Origin: a virus
DNA length: 64,000 bases
Virus record (IMG/VR): IMGVR_UViG_3300044846_001842
Coordinates: 16,107-80,106 of that record
Reading direction: 5' to 3' (one strand)
The notes beneath the pieces were generated by a model. It saw only the letters and a program-made list of their open reading frames with translations, was not told where the DNA came from and searched no databases. The position numbers were made by a program, and so were the translations under genes. This document shows positions 2,642-64,000 of the stretch, piece by piece (the stretch's first letter is position 1; each line of letters opens with the position of its first letter).

Positions 2642-4432
2642 ATGGATAAGCAAATACTTGATAGAATCAAGAAATCAGAACAAAGAGTCGTAGACTTGTA
2701 TGCTAAAGTCAAAGACTTAAATACTACCGTATATGGTGGTGGAGGCACTCAAGGTCTTAAAGAACAGTATACTATTCTTCAGATAGATCCTGATAATGAT
2801 ACAGATGCAAATAGAGGTAAAGCTTTAAAAGATTTGTATCAAAAAATAAAAGATAGAAATGAAAATAGTAGTTCTTGGATACATACTATTTTAGTTCCTC
2901 CTGGAGATTATTATTTCCAAGATGGAGAACCTCTTGTATTAGATTATGAAGGTATTAATGTAGTGTCTTTAACAGGAGAACCTGATGTATTTATATCAGT
3001 TAGATATGATAGTCAACCTTTTGCTATTAATGAACTTATTTACAGTGGAGCTGAAACTGCTGAAGAATTTCTTGATACTTTTAATTTTTCTGAAACTGTT
3101 GGAAATAATGTATATGGAAGTAACTATGGAGTAGATTCTCAAGGTGTATTTTTTAATGATGTAGATCAAGGAGATGAAGATGGAGAATCTTATCCTATAA
3201 GATTTGGACTTGTAAATACTAATGTTAATGATTATCTTAATTATAATATTTCTTTTATACAAGAAGATAATTGTTCTGATTTAGGTTTTGCTATATGGCA
3301 AGAAGGAAGTACTCCTCAATGGAATTGGGGAGAAGATCATTTTGGTACTTTATTTAAAGTTCAAATAAATTGTGAAGATACTATAGAAATTGTAGGATTT
3401 AGTAGTTACGATGAATTAACTATTCCTGGAGGTTTAACTATAGGTCATACTTATATGCTTATAATTAATATGGAACCTAGTTCTGGATTTCTTTTTGTAG
3501 GTTTATATGATCAAACTACAGGTTCTTGGGTAGTAAGTGACAATTATAGTCCAAGGTATGCTATTCCTACAGGATATAATATTATTGCAGGAATAGCTGC
3601 TGATTCTGATGAGGGAAGTACTATTCATATAACTTATCTAAATGGACCAAATGATGTATATACAACATATACTCCTTGTCTTTCTGTAGAGACTAGTAAT
3701 GTAACAGTAAGAGGTATAGTAGGAAAAAGAGACTCTTCTAGTAATTGGGGTAGTTGGTCTGAACTTGATTATGATTATAATCTTCCAATTTTTGTAGATG
3801 AAGGTTTGGCTAATGTAGTTATTGAGAATTGTATTGGAGGTCCTTTCTCTTTTGGAGCAGACCCTGAATTTAATGGAAATGGACAATATAATAGTACCTA
3901 CACATTTAAAAACTGTAGAGCACCTCAAGGATATTCTTTTGGTTATGGAGTAGAAGATTATGAAGTTACTGCTATAGGTTGTAATAGTCTCAATTATTAT
4001 GGAAGCTATTCTCCTCGTTGTTTTGATGTAGATGATGAATTATATGTTACTGTTATTGATTGTCATTTTGGAGATTACTCTTTTAGAGGTTATGAAATAG
4101 ATATAACTGTAAAAGACACTGAAGTTGGATCTAGTTGTTTTGGAGCAGATGGTTATTTTGAAGGAAATTTTGAAAATGTTACAACTGGAGAAGATTGTTT
4201 TAATAATGGGAATGGTAGTATTTATGGAATTTATAGAAACTGTAAAGTAGGTACTTATTGTTTTAGTTCTTATGATAGTATTTATGCTGACTTTTATAAT
4301 TGTTATTTTATAGATGCAAGTAATTTAGATCAATCTAATGCTACTTGTCACTTTTGTATAAATGACGATTATTTAGAAAATGGAACAGCTACAGTTGGCT
4401 ATGCTAGTTACAATGTAAACATAAATGATTAA
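2642..4432 (+). CDS. Tail spike / receptor-binding protein with beta-helix repeats
   Basis: N-terminal coiled coil, ILVPPGDY pectin-lyase-like start, C-terminal repeats of the G..CF...F.NC type, acidic. Confidence 0.65.
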   Translation: MDKQILDRIKKSEQRVVDLYAKVKDLNTTVYGGGGTQGLKEQYTILQIDPDNDTDANRGKALKDLYQKIKDRNENSSSWIHTILVPPGDYYFQDGEPLVLDYEGINVVSLTGEPDVFISVRYDSQPFAINELIYSGAETAEEFLDTFNFSETVGNNVYGSNYGVDSQGVFFNDVDQGDEDGESYPIRFGLVNTNVNDYLNYNISFIQEDNCSDLGFAIWQEGSTPQWNWGEDHFGTLFKVQINCEDTIEIVGFSSYDELTIPGGLTIGHTYMLIINMEPSSGFLFVGLYDQTTGSWVVSDNYSPRYAIPTGYNIIAGIAADSDEGSTIHITYLNGPNDVYTTYTPCLSVETSNVTVRGIVGKRDSSSNWGSWSELDYDYNLPIFVDEGLANVVIENCIGGPFSFGADPEFNGNGQYNSTYTFKNCRAPQGYSFGYGVEDYEVTAIGCNSLNYYGSYSPRCFDVDDELYVTVIDCHFGDYSFRGYEIDITVKDTEVGSSCFGADGYFEGNFENVTTGEDCFNNGNGSIYGIYRNCKVGTYCFSSYDSIYADFYNCYFIDASNLDQSNATCHFCINDDYLENGTATVGYASYNVNIND

Positions 4433-44637: not shown

Positions 44638-46413
44638 AATTCTGAAGCAGAATAATTCATAGGAACTACAAATTCATAGTAGAAAGGAACTTCTCTGATA
44701 GTTTCTCCACTATAAATGTTAGCAATATGATTAGTAAAATAGGAAGTCATAAGAGTTCCTATCATAGCTGCTGTATGAGAACTTTGCTTCATAGTACAAG
44801 GGGCTTCCTCCACTATTGAATCATGAAACAAATGGTCTTTTTCATACCTGTCAGCATTTTCCGGAGTAACACAGAATATCTGTAATTGCTCTATCTCTAG
44901 TCTACCATCTATGAAGATTGGAGTCACCCCTGGTGGAGCTATACTCCAGGACTTCTTCCAGACATGAAACAATGCATTTCTTGCCTCCATGTTATCAAAA
45001 GCAGAAAACATAAAGTAATGTGTCATTGTATTCATATCAATTCTCTCATTGAATGTAGATATAGGAGTATTACAAAAAGAGTTTACAACTCTTGCTACTG
45101 CTGTTACTTTAGCTTGACCTAAGTCAGTCTGCATAAATAATTGACCACCTAGATTATGGTCTTCTACAGTATCAAAGTCATAGAGGTTAACTCTAAAACC
45201 TATCTTAGTTAAGAAATAACATAACCAACTCGACGTATCTACATATTTCTATATAGGTCGGACTATATCTTCACCCTTATAGGGTGGGGGACACTTTTTC
45301 ATTAAGGGACTAACCTTAATTACTTCCTGTTATTAAGCCACATTGCTGTGGCTCAGGTAGTCTCTGAACCTTCCATCTCTGATGGCTTGGCTGCTGATTA
45401 ACAACTTAGTATAAGCTTTTTTCTCACTTATATACCTTAGTGGCTTTAGTCTTCCAGCAATTCATCCCCTCCACCAATAGTATTACTACTATTGGGGGCA
45501 GTTATAACTTGGCTCATTTTATTACAACTTTTACATTTTATCCTTGTTTTCCCATTTCTAAATCCATTATAAGAAGTAGACAGAGATAAACATTTAGGAC
45601 ATTGTATCCTTTCTTTTTGTTCATATTCTGCAATTACATTTAATTTTTCATATTTTCTTTGTAGAAAAATTGAAGCTTCCTTGTAAATATATTCTCCAAA
45701 TAATTTAGAGACAGAGTAAGAACTTGTGTATAATTTATAATAATCCAAAGTTCTTAAACCTATTCCTTTAAAAGAACAAGTCAAATTTACTGGAATTCTG
45801 TTATCATACAATTGTTTAATTATTTCTGTTATAAGAGTAAAAGATGTTCCTCCTATTTCAATTTTTAAATTAAAAAGTTTTTGAGAATACACACTCCCAT
45901 CTCCATCAAAATAACCTCTTATGAAATGGTTCATAAATTGTAAAGGAATATGATTAAGAGAAAGTAATTCCCTATTAACAGAAGATTTTAAACAAAAAAC
46001 TCCCTTTTCTAAAAGATCTTTTTTAAGTTTTTTAGAAGTGCAATCTAGCTTATATGCTTTTGCATGAGATTTTCTTATTGTAAAAAAAGGAAAAATTTGA
46101 ACAAGTTTTTGTAAAAGCATTAAATCTTGTTCATGTAAAGTGATACCACAATTATTATTAGCAGAACAAACATACCCATCTGCGTAAAAAAGTCCTAACA
46201 AATATGCTTTTTCTTGTGTATCAAGTTGTTGTAATTCATTTGCATATTTCATATTTTCTAAGTTTTAGAATACAAAAATACAAACTATAAATGAGATATA
46301 CAAATATATCTACCAATACCACCTGCACCACCCACCATACACACTTCATTATTTCTAGGGAACCAAGGGGCATCTTTAAATCTAGACTGTTGGGTTGTGC
46401 TATTTTGTCTCAT
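44634..46413 (-). CDS. ThiF/E1-like ubiquitin-activating-family enzyme, 232 aa, two exons (46413-46312 and 45230-44634)
   Basis: Joined exons read MVGGAGGIG|SWLCYFLTKIG...YDFDTVEDHNLGGQLF...AFDNMEAR...IDGR...APCT. Confidence 0.88.
45446..46252 (-). CDS. Double-motif LAGLIDADG homing endonuclease with C-terminal Zn ribbon (intron-encoded)
   Basis: YLLGLFYADG and FIRGYFDGDG; CPKC...CKSC. Confidence 0.9.
   Translation of the reverse strand: MKYANELQQLDTQEKAYLLGLFYADGYVCSANNNCGITLHEQDLMLLQKLVQIFPFFTIRKSHAKAYKLDCTSKKLKKDLLEKGVFCLKSSVNRELLSLNHIPLQFMNHFIRGYFDGDGSVYSQKLFNLKIEIGGTSFTLITEIIKQLYDNRIPVNLTCSFKGIGLRTLDYYKLYTSSYSVSKLFGEYIYKEASIFLQRKYEKLNVIAEYEQKERIQCPKCLSLSTSYNGFRNGKTRIKCKSCNKMSQVITAPNSSNTIGGGDELLED
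46273..46304 (-). promoter_or_regulatory. Intron-internal Bacteroidota promoter for the LAGLIDADG gene
   Basis: TTTG (46304-01), 20 nt, TATTTTTG (46280-73). Confidence 0.65.
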
Positions 46414-62773: not shown

Positions 62774-63053
62774 AATAAATAATTTGATTTAAGTTCTAAA
62801 TACAAGAATAAGAAGGCAATAACTTGCTCTTATATTTAGATTGCGATTTGATTTTTCTTTTGTTGCCTTTTTAATTTAAAAACTAATAAACTTGGTACTA
62901 CAAATTTCCCGAAAGATTTTGCTCCTCTTATTAGCCCAAACCCCAAATACTACAAGCCATTTACTAATCTAGCTCATACTATGTTCAGAGGTATAAAATA
63001 CCACACATAGTTTTGATACAATAGGAGTTCAATCATGTTGATTATGTTTGTAG

Positions 63054-63516
63054 TGGAGGTGGGGGAAGTTGAATCCCCGTATTTAGCATTAGAGTTAAAA
63101 AATTTTATACAGCTTTATTTGTTTGTGATATTCAGTTCCTAATAAACAAATAAACATCGGAACTATTTCAAATTACTATTTAATAAGTATCTTTTAATTC
63201 TGCTGAAATAAGGCAAGAATAGGGCCAACTGATTCTGGTAAAACCAGCAGTAAGCCTCCACCATCTAGTTTTATCCCAAACTAGCAAAAGGGAGTATTAA
63301 CTTAACCTAAGTTATGGTCCTAATCTTTGGCTTAGGCAGCCACAGCTAAATCTACTTCCTTTGAAGTAGACATCAAGTTGTGAACAACTTGCATATTAGC
63401 TTGTATTTGAGCATTCTCTAAAATGTTGCCATTTATTGAAATTTCACCTTAGTTTACAGTTATCTCTCTGGCTGAATTTTTTAATCTTAGATGCTAAAGC
63501 AAAACCCGGCACCCCC
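63054..63516 (-). ncRNA. ssrA: tmRNA
   Basis: 5' GGGGGTG pairs 3' CACCTCC-A with G3-U; T-arm GGGGA-TTCAACT-TCCCC; long P2 pairing; tag ORF 63430-63332 ends LAVAA*. Confidence 0.9.
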
Positions 63517-63575
63517 AATTTGCTTGTCTTTCCAAGCTGTCATTCCTATTATTTTGTAAGGGTGGAACATCCTTA

Positions 63576-63675
63576 TAGTCAGAACAGGATTCGAACCTGT
63601 AACTTTAGCTAAAGCCCTCGAGGATTACGGTTTAACCTACCGCTGCTTTGCGTCTACCAATTCCGCCACCTGACT
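63576..63675 (-). tRNA. Atypical tRNA-like RNA (Leu-type D-arm, enlarged non-canonical anticodon domain)
   Basis: Acceptor AGTCAGG/TCTGACT-A, D-arm GCGGAATTGGTAGACGC, T-arm ACAGG-TTCGAAT-CCTGT; about 49 nt between D and T arms. Confidence 0.7.
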
Positions 63676-63929
63676 ATATTAAACCAAACACACCCATCAA
63701 GATTGGAAATCACATGATGTGCTAACAATTTAATGTCTGATTCTTACTCAACAAACATAACACTTCTTGATAGTGTTGTAATACTTCTCACTTCTGTGAC
63801 TCTCTTTTGCATGTCACCTGTGCGTTGAGCTTATTACATCTCTTTATTAGCTTCTTATCCCTCACTCGAAGTATCCAAGCTGTTAGAATAATATTACCTG
63901 TTTGTCTTTCTGTGTGTTTGATTTAATAT
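63676..63929 (-). ncRNA. Unidentified structured ncRNA (~254 nt)
   Basis: 18-bp terminal helix (one G-U on - strand), nested internal helices, loop-to-3'-end pseudoknot, no ORF in the track. Confidence 0.55.
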
Positions 63930-64000
63930 TATAAACTATTAAGACAGAATGCTATAGCTTGTGAAGCATGGTCTCCCTAAATTATTACTTTAAGTAGTAA

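What the first reader, a model, noticed from the sequence alone, without database searches (positions are those of the whole stretch)
63676..63929. Unidentified ~254-nt pseudoknotted ncRNA abutting a tRNA-like element
On the - strand: an 18-bp closing helix (63929-12 with 63693-76, one G-U), ACAAACA/TGTTTGT, TGTAATA/TATTACA, CTCA/TGAG and GTGAC/GTCAC. There is also a hairpin ACACT-ATCAAGA-AGTGT whose 7-nt loop is exactly complementary to TCTTGAT next to the 3' end, a long-range pseudoknot. Its 3' end directly abuts the tRNA-like 5' end, so RNase P cleavage could release it. I do not see the RNase P RNA consensus. Phage tRNA arrays are known to host large ncRNAs of unknown function.
Basis: partly seen in the sequence, partly recalled or inferred. 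Interest (0 to 1): 0.7.

Follow-up and report, generated by a model that had tools for sequence, protein, structure and literature searches.

The report
New phage structured RNA family
The 254-base stretch is a real gene for a tightly folded non-coding RNA of an uncatalogued family, found so far only in uncultivated freshwater, marine and sediment phages, often beside their tRNA and tmRNA genes; its job is still unknown.

Summary
Window 63929-63676 (minus strand) folds far better than shuffles (z -5.2). It is one of at least 55 distinct homologues in viral and metagenome contigs. A covariance model built without the window scores it 107 bits.

All members share one architecture:
- a closing helix P1, then AGAAAG;
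- helix P2 (ACAAACA/UGUUUGU), which encloses a variable domain and a hairpin with a (A)(U)CAAGA loop;
- UGAGUA(A/U)G, then a variable helix P3;
- a CC[..UCUUGAU]GG mini-loop that pairs with the hairpin loop.

96.6% of pair cells are paired, against 30-51% in slid controls. 25 pairs show double changes, three of them in the loop-loop helix. G-U outnumbers A-C 100 to 20, so the folded strand is the tRNA strand.

I found no Rfam match, no copy in 50,697 GenBank phages and none in 185,579 prokaryote species genomes. It is single-copy in its own genome, so it is not a MITE. It is not RNase P RNA and not T4 RNA C/D.

About a third of members abut a tRNA or tRNA-like gene. Others stand alone behind Bacteroidota-type promoters.

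Function is unknown. My best guess is a stable, trans-acting scaffold or decoy RNA released by tRNA-processing enzymes.

This scan had already noted related uncatalogued phage RNA modules on other genomes.

The parts
63676..63929 (-). Whole ncRNA gene (254 nt), a member of the new family
   Evidence: Fold z -5.24. Model R1, built without the window, scores 63688-63917 at 107.4 bits, E 9e-24.
63912..63929 (-). P1, 5' strand (closing helix, 18 bp here)
   Evidence: Pairs with 63693-63676 with one U-G. In the family the distal P1 pairs covary: AU, CG and UA types occur at three positions.
63906..63911 (-). J1/2, AGAAAG, nearly invariant junction strand
   Evidence: Invariant or >90% conserved in 50-55 sequences. 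The fit to a GAA/AGUA loop-E-type module is my inference.
63899..63905 (-). P2, 5' strand, ACAAACA
   Evidence: Pairs with 63757-63751. 98.7% of cells are paired and 5 pairs have double changes, mostly from the divergent paralog.
63778..63898 (-). Variable domain A, closed by GGUAAUA (63898-63892) / UAUUAC (63783-63778); holds the GTGAC/GTCAC and CTCA/TGAG hairpins
   Evidence: All 5 pairs of the closing helix show double changes. Its length ranges from about 20 to 130 nt across the family.
63760..63776 (-). Hairpin ACACU-AUCAAGA-AGUGU; loop at 63771-63765
   Evidence: The stem covaries (UUACU/AGUAA in L059, AUGU/ACAU in the L056 paralog). CAAG of the loop is invariant in 55 sequences, and the next A is G in one divergent paralog.
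63751..63757 (-). P2, 3' strand, UGUUUGU
63743..63750 (-). J2/3, UGAGUAAG, conserved junction strand
   Evidence: Conservation. Lies opposite J1/2 across the base of P2.
63708..63742 (-). P3 / variable domain B (AAUCAGACAU ... AUGUGAUU here)
   Evidence: The base helix is GAUAA/UUAUC in most members, and all 5 pairs show double changes. The window's version reads differently but still pairs.
63694..63706 (-). Mini-loop CC[AAUCUUGAU]GG; UCUUGAU (63702-63696) pairs with the hairpin loop
   Evidence: Of 7 loop-loop pairs, 4 are invariant and 3 carry compensatory double changes (L091, L062 copy b, the L056/L082 paralog). The CC/GG closure shows C:G to U:A.
63676..63693 (-). P1, 3' strand
63742..63918 (-). 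177-nt cassette, 99.4% identical to contigs L016 and L019, whose flanks are unrelated
   Evidence: This is the only similarity between the 64-kb window and those loci.
63576..63675 (-). Abutting tRNA-like gene: Leu-type acceptor/D arm and T arm, with 35 nt where the 9-nt core of the anticodon arm (loop and closing pair) should be
   Evidence: Rfam tRNA 40.8 bits, not called by ARAGORN. It belongs to a group of tRNA look-alikes with a hypervariable middle.
63051..63516 (-). Phage tmRNA gene downstream on the same strand
   Evidence: Rfam RF00023 at 54.3 bits. The 5' part is 82-84% identical to the tmRNAs of Cellulophaga phage phi14:2 and Flavobacterium phage FpV4.

Best explanation
Window 63929-63676 (minus strand) is a gene for a stable, structured non-coding RNA of a previously uncatalogued, phage-only family.

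Shown:
- The RNA folds as a multi-helix junction. P1 closes the 5' and 3' ends.
- P2 carries a variable domain and a hairpin whose CAAGA loop pairs with UCUUG. That UCUUG sits in a small loop between P3 and P1.
- The junction strands AGAAAG and UGAGUA(A/U)G are almost invariant.
- The fold is read on the same strand as the neighbouring tRNA-like and tmRNA genes.

Inferred:
- The RNA is transcribed together with those genes, or from its own Bacteroidota-type promoter in stand-alone members.
- RNase P cutting at the 5' end of the abutting tRNA-like gene sets its 3' end. In relatives that follow a tRNA-Leu, RNase Z sets the 5' end. The result is an exonuclease-protected RNA with paired termini.
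- The two junction strands face each other at the base of P2 and fit an AGUA/GAA loop-E (bulged-G) module, a common protein or RNA docking platform.

Speculative, but my best guess: the compact core acts in trans as a scaffold or decoy. It would bind a host or phage protein of RNA metabolism, translation or defence during infection, while the variable domains A and B are tolerated decorations.

My odds: about 0.9 that it is a real functional RNA family, about 0.6 that it is released by tRNA-type processing, and about 0.3 for the protein-binding scaffold or decoy role.
For: Fold: z -5.24.

Family:
- Homologues were found with four independent sequence anchors in viral and metagenome contigs.
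- Model R1 was built without the window and scores it 107.4 bits.

Structure:
- 93-97% of pair cells are paired, against 30-51% in slid controls. 23-25 pairs show double changes, and 0 of 500 shuffles reach the observed values.
- The loop-loop helix has three compensatory changes at three positions. The CC/GG closure has one.

Strand: 100 G-U cells against 20 A-C cells.

Coding: there is no minus-strand ORF of 40 aa or more in 62774-64000, and domain lengths vary freely.

Context:
- 18 of 55 members lie within 30 nt of a same-strand tRNA or tRNA-like gene, and 28 of 55 within 1.5 kb of a tRNA or tmRNA. Rfam shows further tRNA-like genes abutting members.
- TAnnTTTG motifs lie 7-27 nt upstream of six members (a seventh lies 49 nt upstream), and U-rich tails follow P1 in many.
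- No neighbouring protein is constant. This fits a trans-acting RNA rather than a guide or cis element of one gene.

Expression: metatranscriptome contigs from four studies hold the conserved part. One runs on into the upstream tRNA-Leu of a relative. This is weak, because these are contigs only.

Precedent:
- The homologous RNA island of phi14:2 is transcribed above most protein genes (10.1101/2020.03.07.982082).
- T4 makes RNA C and RNA D from its tRNA region (PMC3014915).
Against: - No transcript ends, abundance or processing have been measured for any member. The RNA-library data are assembled contigs, and DNA carry-over is possible.
- The record ends 71 nt upstream of the element, so no promoter can be assigned here, and none of the TAnnTTTG type is visible in those 71 nt.
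- About half of the members have no detectable tRNA nearby, though many sit on short contigs.
- No partner protein is indicated by gene neighbourhood.
- The loop-E reading rests on sequence pattern only. One member has A in place of the bulged G (L062).
- The four central loop-loop pairs never vary in 55 sequences. That hints at a further sequence-specific constraint, such as a catalytic or intermolecular role, which the scaffold idea does not explain.
Confidence: 0.5

Rival explanations
1. Self-assembling RNA. The two complementary loops pair between molecules, not within one. The RNA then forms dimers, rings or cages, as phi29 pRNA, ROOL and GOLLD do.
For: - Two 6-7-nt loops are perfectly complementary and conserved.
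- The hairpin sits at the far end of P2, about 12 stacked layers from the junction that holds its partner. An intramolecular contact therefore needs a sharp bend (inference).
- In ROOL, a conserved kissing loop first read as a tertiary contact proved to be intermolecular. ROOL and GOLLD also lie near phage tRNA islands (PMC12286853).
- In one phage the second copy has a changed loop pair, CAAGG:CCUUG, as expected if paralogs need partly separate specificities.
Against: - Covariation cannot tell pairing within one molecule from pairing between molecules.
- SAM-I-like folds make the same loop-to-junction-strand contact within one molecule (general knowledge).
- In L062 both copies keep the same CAAGA:UCUUG core, so they are not orthogonal.
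- At 146-272 nt the RNA is far smaller than ROOL or GOLLD.
Confidence: 0.15
2. A new self-cleaving or otherwise catalytic RNA that helps to process the polycistronic tRNA/tmRNA precursors.
For: - A core of about 70 nt is nearly invariant, including unpaired junction nucleotides, while peripheral domains vary. This is the usual pattern for ribozymes.
- Members often sit directly against tRNA ends.
- To my knowledge, small HDV-like ribozymes are known next to phage tRNAs. I did not check this in a paper here.
Against: - No Rfam ribozyme family matches, even at E<=10.
- The helix order A-B-B'-A' with a loop contact does not fit the HDV, hammerhead, twister, pistol, hatchet or hairpin topologies (my comparison from memory).
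- Many members stand alone with their own promoter and no tRNA to process.
- No candidate cleavage site could be named.
Confidence: 0.08
3. A ligand-sensing aptamer (orphan riboswitch-like RNA) that controls read-through into the downstream RNA genes.
For: - Its building blocks are a multi-helix junction closed by P1, a loop-to-junction pseudoknot and a loop-E-like module. SAM-I and lysine riboswitch aptamers use the same parts (general knowledge).
- P1 is often followed by a U-run, so P1 formation could act as a terminator.
Against: - Downstream genes are not constant. They include tRNA-Thr, tRNA-Cys, tRNA-like genes, tmRNA, a new promoter, or nothing.
- No protein-coding gene is regularly downstream.
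- No alternative (anti-terminator) pairing is conserved.
- No Rfam riboswitch matches.
Confidence: 0.07
4. A very divergent phage copy of a housekeeping RNA such as RNase P RNA, 6S RNA or SRP RNA.
For: It sits with tRNA and tmRNA genes, i.e. among translation-related RNA genes. AGAAAG followed by a long-range helix faintly recalls the GGAAAG(U) of RNase P CR-I/P4 (from memory).
Against: - No match to any RNase P, 6S or SRP model at E<=10.
- There is no P2/P3 before the AGAAAG, and no CR-IV or CR-V equivalents.
- The smallest members are 146 nt.
- The family is absent from 185,579 cellular genomes, so there is no cellular parent.
Confidence: 0.03
5. Not an RNA gene: a MITE-like mobile DNA with terminal inverted repeats, a DNA-level site, or chance hairpins.
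For: The 18-bp terminal inverted repeat looks like MITE ends. A 177-nt internal cassette is 99.4% identical in unrelated phage contexts, which shows mobility of some kind.
Against: - It is single-copy in its 80-kb genome.
- The exchanged cassette excludes the inverted-repeat ends.
- The strong G-U over A-C excess (100 to 20) marks one transcribed strand.
- Compensatory changes occur in every helix and in a non-nested loop pairing.
Confidence: 0.02

Closest known systems
Phage T4 RNA C (species 1) and RNA D (species 2), small stable RNAs of the T4 tRNA gene cluster
   Same: Phage-encoded, non-coding, on the tRNA strand, directly abutting tRNA genes, presumably released by tRNA-processing enzymes, and of unknown role (PMC3014915; T4 annotation).
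   Different: No homology: model R1 finds nothing on rnaC or rnaD with filters off. The T4 RNAs are 139 and 119 nt. The loop-loop pairing and the conserved AGAAAG/UGAGUA core described here are not known for them.
GOLLD and ROOL large ornate RNAs (Rfam)
   Same: Orphan structured RNAs of phages and prophages, often near tRNA islands, with conserved kissing loops and unknown function (PMC5737381; PMC12286853).
   Different: They are 3-5 times larger (about 600-800 nt) and also occur in cellular genomes and prophages. No Rfam match here. Oligomerisation has not been shown for this family.
The two highly transcribed intergenic 'long non-coding RNAs' of Cellulophaga crAss-like phage phi14:2
   Same: They lie in the equivalent genome region: an RNA island around a tmRNA that is 82% identical in part to the window's. 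They are transcribed above most protein genes from early infection onward (10.1101/2020.03.07.982082).
   Different: phi14:2 has no member of this family. Its non-coding stretch upstream of the tmRNA is a different sequence.
freshwater-1 RNA (Rfam RF02979)
   Same: A small orphan RNA motif from freshwater metagenomes. It occurs in the same phage tRNA array as a family member (L083 3299-3360).
   Different: It is 62 nt with an unrelated sequence and structure. It is catalogued in Rfam, and this family is not.
SAM-I and lysine riboswitch aptamers (architecture only)
   Same: A junction closed by P1 and a terminal loop that pairs with a junction strand or a second loop, with a loop-E or K-turn type module in the arm that folds back (general knowledge).
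   Different: No sequence or model match. There is no regulated ORF downstream and no expression platform.
phi29 pRNA
   Same: A phage RNA with paired 5'/3' ends, a multi-helix junction and two complementary loops (general knowledge; cited within PMC12286853).
   Different: No Rfam pRNA match. pRNA is confined to phi29-like phages and lies at a genome end next to the packaging genes. This family lies in RNA-gene islands of many unrelated large phages.

Membership tests
New family defined here (model R1) | Full-length match to a covariance model built from other members | tested here: met
   Window 63688-63917(-) scores 107.4 bits, E 9e-24, over model positions 1-164. The window was not in seed alignment A4.
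New family defined here (model R1) | Core motifs: P1 ..CACAN / N'UGUG.., AGAAAG, ACAAACA/UGUUUGU, CAAGA loop, UGAGUA, CC..UCUUG..GG | tested here: met
   All are present at 63917-63689. The P1 closing pair is C:G instead of U:A, a compensated change.
Any Rfam 15 family (4227 models) | Match at the gathering score, or any match at E<=10, on the element | tested here: not met
   Nothing overlaps 63676-63929. Nothing overlaps 22 other members.
Bacterial RNase P RNA | P1-P4 core with the conserved CR-I, CR-IV and CR-V sequences | tested here: not met
   No RNase P model matches at E<=10. By eye there is no P2/P3 before the AGAAAG. The smallest members are 146 nt.
MITE / transposon-like element | Multiple dispersed copies per genome, bounded by the terminal inverted repeats | tested here: not met
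   One copy in the 80,106-nt record. The segment shared with other phages (63742-63918) lies inside the repeats and excludes them.
T4 rnaC / rnaD | Sequence and structure homology | tested here: not met
   With filters off, R1 gives no hit on T4 70908-71171 (L134 2909-3172). The best hit elsewhere in the locus is 16.7 bits.
GOLLD / ROOL | Match to RF01998 or RF03087; size about 600-800 nt | tested here: not met
   No Rfam hit. The family is 146-272 nt.
Known self-cleaving ribozyme classes (hammerhead, HDV-like, twister, twister-sister, pistol, hatchet, hairpin) | Class-specific core sequence and helix topology | tested here: not met
   No Rfam match at E<=10. The topology comparison is from memory only. 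Cleavage activity itself cannot be tested with these tools.
Loop-E / sarcin-ricin (bulged-G) module | AGUA opposite GAA, flanked by helices, forming the S-turn | tested here: inconclusive
   J2/3 U-G-A-G-U-A faces J1/2 A-G-A-A-A-G in the right register at the base of P2, and both are >90% conserved. One member has A for the bulged G. 3D geometry is not testable here.
tRNA-processing-dependent stable RNA | Mature ends made by RNase P or RNase Z at abutting tRNA genes | not testable with these tools
   Only the geometry is known: the 3' end of P1 is at 63676 and the tRNA-like 5' end at 63675. In ten distinct members of A5 (L006, L016, L030, L100, L106, L107, L110, L115, L117 after tRNA-Leu; L112 after tRNA-Met) the model's P1 core starts 6-8 nt after a tRNA; L018 and L019 duplicate two of these. 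RNA data are contigs only.

The most novel reading that the evidence does not exclude
The RNA is a new functional class and not just another orphan scaffold. Either it is a small self-assembling RNA whose invariant CAAGA/UCUUG loops link copies into rings or cages, or it is a new ribozyme whose near-invariant ~70-nt junction core is an active site. Either way it would be used by many large aquatic phages during takeover of Bacteroidota-type hosts.
Probability: 0.2. Interest if true: 0.85.

Novelty: new variant of a known kind. Interest (0 to 1): 0.6.

Why it matters
Phage tRNA islands have long been known to hide stable RNAs whose purpose is unknown: T4 RNA C/D since the 1970s, and GOLLD and ROOL since 2010-2017. 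This family adds a compact (146-272 nt), sharply defined example.

- Its core is close to invariant across phages from about 20 kb fragments to 340 kb genomes, in lakes, rivers, sediments, estuaries and seas.
- It is absent from every cultured phage and every cellular genome that I could search.
- It is small enough for chemical probing, crystallography or cryo-EM, and for mutate-and-rescue tests.
- A 177-nt cassette that is 99.4% identical in unrelated phage contexts shows that it is being exchanged now, as accessory takeover or anti-defence modules are.

Finding its partner or activity could explain a whole class of phage RNA-island genes. It would also give Rfam a new family that annotation pipelines currently miss or cover with spurious small ORFs.

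Tried and rejected
- MITE reading: rejected. The element is single-copy in its own genome, and the shared cassette excludes the repeats.
- Homology with the RNA islands of the nearest cultured phages, phi14:2 and FpV4: none by blastn, nhmmer or the covariance model. The 38-nt blast match in phi14:2 lies inside gene gp006 and is chance.
- Neighbour-protein route to relatives: only one locus (L005), and its contig starts inside the tmRNA, so it holds no element.
- Cellular genomes: two independent core patterns gave 0 and 5 hits, and all 5 are chance matches inside unrelated sequence.
- Constant neighbouring protein: none. The best clusters occur in 8 of 57 loci. Homing endonucleases (HNH-like, GIY-YIG), an RNA ligase and an SPFH protein are among the recurrent neighbours.
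- Pairing of the conserved loops with the phages' own tmRNAs: no consistent complement.
- Anticodon-arm mimicry by the hairpin (U33, CAA, G37): dropped, because nearly half the members have a 6-nt loop ACAAGA without the U.
A shorter seed worked.
- Metatranscriptome contigs: they cover 63745-63924 in four studies. They break where relatives diverge, so their ends say nothing about RNA ends, and DNA carry-over cannot be excluded. Parts without cover mean nothing.
- Literature: no paper describing this motif turned up in five full-text searches. The 10,006-motif viral catalogue (PMC10690425) has no supplement held, so I could not check whether it lists this motif unnamed.

Full report
WHERE IT IS

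The window is the last 64 kb of an 80,106-nt linear IMG/VR virus record, estimated 85% complete. On the minus strand its end holds an RNA-gene island:
- the element at 63929-63676;
- a 100-nt tRNA-like gene at 63675-63576. It scores 40.8 bits on the Rfam tRNA model, has 35 nt where the 9-nt core of the anticodon arm (loop and closing pair) should be, and is not called by ARAGORN;
- a tmRNA at 63516-63051 (Rfam, 54.3 bits);
- the first minus-strand ORF, from 62773.

The record stops 71 nt upstream of the element. The tmRNA is 82-84% identical in part to those of Cellulophaga phage phi14:2 (Crassvirales) and the Flavobacterium psychrophilum FpV4 group.

CHECK OF THE OBSERVATION

The 254-nt RNA folds to -65.9 kcal/mol, against -45.5 +/- 3.9 for 200 dinucleotide shuffles (z -5.24, none as good). 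Rfam 15 has no match on it, even at E<=10. It occurs once in its genome, so the 18-bp terminal inverted repeat does not mark a MITE.

RELATIVES

The nearest cultured phages have no counterpart, and 50,697 GenBank phage records have none. Exact-pattern scans of IMG/VR used three different anchors: the hairpin, the 3' strand and the 5' strand. A gapped pattern that leaves both loop strands free was run on metagenome contigs. Together these gave about 50 distinct homologues of 146-272 nt.

A covariance model (R1) was built from 15 short members without the window. It scores the window at 107.4 bits (E 9e-24). It recovers 55 distinct sequences, including strongly divergent second copies in two phage contigs at 45.9 bits.

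Two independent core patterns found no true member in one genome each of 185,579 bacterial and archaeal species. The host contigs range from fragments to 309-340 kb. The runs that hold the sequence come from lake, river, sediment, estuary and marine samples.

ANATOMY

From 5' to 3':
- P1 5' strand (..CACAU);
- AGAAAG;
- P2 5' strand (ACAAACA);
- variable domain A, closed by GUAAU/AUUAC;
- a hairpin, ACACU-(A)(U)CAAGA-AGUGU;
- UA;
- P2 3' strand (UGUUUGU);
- UGAGUA(A/U)G;
- P3, with a GAUAA/UUAUC base and variable domain B;
- CC-(C/A)A-UCUUGA(U)-GG;
- P1 3' strand (AUGUG..).

Pair counts:

| Alignment | Sequences | Cells paired | Slid controls | Pairs with double changes | Shuffles reaching observed |
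|---|---|---|---|---|---|
| MAFFT | 50 | 93.4% | 37-46% | 23 | 0 of 500 |
| Model-based | 55 | 96.6% | 30-51% | 25 | 0 of 500 |

The loop-loop helix and the CC/GG closure were not part of the model, so the model-based counts are unbiased for them.

The loop-loop helix keeps its four central pairs (CAAG:CUUG) invariant. Three other positions carry compensatory changes:
- U:A to C:G in L091;
- A:U to U:A in the second copy of L062;
- A:U to G:C in the divergent paralog of L056 and L082.

That same paralog also rewrites P2, the hairpin stem, the P3 base and one CC/GG pair, and keeps them all paired.

G-U cells outnumber A-C cells 100 to 20. So the fold belongs to an RNA, or a single strand, of the tRNA-gene polarity.

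UAUUAC (63783-63778) pairs with GGUAAUA (63898-63892), not with the inner UGUAAUA. L026 shows the double change GCAAUA/UAUUGC there.

J1/2 (A-G-A-A-A-G) and J2/3 (U-G-A-G-U-A) face each other at the base of P2 in the register of an AGUA/GAA loop-E (bulged-G) module. This is my inference from the sequence pattern and is not shown.

CONTEXT

- 18 of 55 members lie within 30 nt of a same-strand tRNA or tRNA-like gene. Ten follow a tRNA (nine a tRNA-Leu(UAG), one a tRNA-Met), nine precede tRNA-Cys or a Leu-type tRNA look-alike, and one does both.
- 28 of 55 have a tRNA or tmRNA within 1.5 kb. Rfam shows further abutting tRNA-like genes that ARAGORN misses.
- In the window and in L040, L046 and L062 the element lies 0.2-0.6 kb upstream of a phage tmRNA.
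- Other members stand alone. Six have a Bacteroidota-type TAnnTTTG motif 7-27 nt upstream (a seventh has one 49 nt upstream), and many have a U-run after P1.
- No protein family is a constant neighbour. Homing endonucleases, an RNA ligase and an SPFH protein recur at most 8 times in 57 loci.

The window shares nothing with contigs L016 and L019 except 63742-63918, at 99.4% identity. This cassette runs from the last P1 pairs to J2/3. It includes domain A, which varies across the family, so the likeness reflects recent exchange and not selection.

EXPRESSION

Assembled metatranscriptomes from four studies contain the conserved part at 95-100% identity. One contig continues into the tRNA-Leu that precedes the element in the L016-type phage. 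These are contigs. They show neither ends nor level, and DNA carry-over is possible.

In phi14:2, the equivalent intergenic RNA island is transcribed above most protein genes from early infection onward (10.1101/2020.03.07.982082). That phage lacks this family.

WHAT IT IS AND HOW IT MAY WORK

Shown: a conserved, single-strand-specific, pseudoknotted fold. It is phage-only, uncatalogued, and located in RNA-gene islands.

Inferred: it is co-transcribed with tRNA-type genes, or from its own promoter. RNase P (3' side here) and RNase Z (5' side in relatives after tRNA-Leu) cut it free, giving an RNA with paired, protected ends.

Speculative: the invariant junction core with a loop-E-like platform binds a protein of host or phage RNA metabolism, translation or defence. 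The RNA would then act in trans as a scaffold or decoy.

Rivals:
- Intermolecular kissing into oligomers. ROOL's conserved 'tertiary' kissing loop proved to be intermolecular (PMC12286853).
- A new ribozyme.
- An orphan aptamer.
- A divergent housekeeping RNA.
- A DNA element.

The data do not separate the first three. The last two are disfavoured or close to refuted.

COMPARISON WITH WHAT IS KNOWN

The element belongs to none of them. There is no Rfam match, and R1 does not hit T4 rnaC or rnaD, phi14:2 or FpV4. By architecture it recalls SAM-I and lysine riboswitch aptamers and pRNA, without homology.

EARLIER NOTES OF THIS SCAN

Other agents had already flagged uncatalogued structured RNA modules upstream of phage tmRNAs and anticodon-less tRNA look-alikes in phages of Bacteroidota-type hosts on other genomes. 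One unchecked note quotes a closing stem AAATCACACAT/ATGTGTGATTT, which matches this family's P1. I used these notes as leads only. The family definition, the covariation and the absence tests above are my own.

VERDICT

This is a real and well-supported new ncRNA family of unknown function. Interest is moderate to high for RNA biology. The novelty lies in the family and its fold, not yet in a mechanism.

Noticed in passing
window 63576-63675 (-); L026 1101-1219, 1343-1439, 1608-1731 (-); L122 303-409; L112 173-293; L128 499-596, 941-1072; L006 4114-4194: The abutting 'tRNA' belongs to a group of tRNA look-alikes. They share a near-identical Leu-type acceptor/D arm (AGTCAGGTGGCGGAATTGGTAGACGC) and T arm (ACAGGTTCGAATCCTGT). 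Their middle is hypervariable and oversized, giving total lengths of 81-132 nt. Several occur in tandem in one phage. They probably cannot decode.
   Followed up: partly
L006 about 3070-3140, L030, L100, L107, L115, L110 (downstream of the element); L026 (upstream of it): A second conserved non-coding block (..CTCGGTGTGATACACCGCCAACTACCTCCTTAAACAACGTGGGAACTGCGG(T/C)TCTCCCAATGTGGC..) recurs next to the element in several phages. It has no Rfam match at gathering score. It may be another uncatalogued RNA.
   Followed up: no
window 63742-63918 versus L016 4741-4917 and L019 2935-3111: A 177-nt internal cassette of the RNA is 99.4% identical between phage contexts that are otherwise unrelated. P1 and domain B differ. 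This suggests recent recombinational exchange of part of an RNA gene.
   Followed up: partly
L056 6517-6718 (-), L082 8806-9007 (-), L062 4582-4766 (+), L021 1565-1764 (-): Some phages carry two copies of the family 1-1.3 kb apart. The second copy can be very divergent (45.9 bits), with rewritten helices and a changed loop-loop pair.
   Followed up: partly
L083 3299-3360 (+): A freshwater-1 RNA (RF02979, 82 bits) sits in the same phage tRNA array as a family member. This gives that orphan Rfam motif a phage tRNA-island context.
   Followed up: no
window 63051-63516 (-); L041 8755-9020; L051 3075-3335: The phage tmRNA in the window scores only 54 bits and ARAGORN does not call it. Two related phages carry permuted (two-piece) tmRNA genes according to both Rfam and ARAGORN.
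   Followed up: no
window 45239-45519 (-): Group I intron (RF00028, 89 bits) elsewhere in the window.
   Followed up: no
L003 1336-1990 (phi14:2 record 2905-3559); L040 about 1745-1790; L111: The promoter-like block TAGGTTAAACATTGAA..ACCTTTG(T/A)AA heads the non-coding stretch of phi14:2 upstream of its tmRNA. The same block follows the element directly in L040 and L111. GenBank annotates small, probably spurious ORFs (gp007-gp009) over the phi14:2 stretch.
   Followed up: partly
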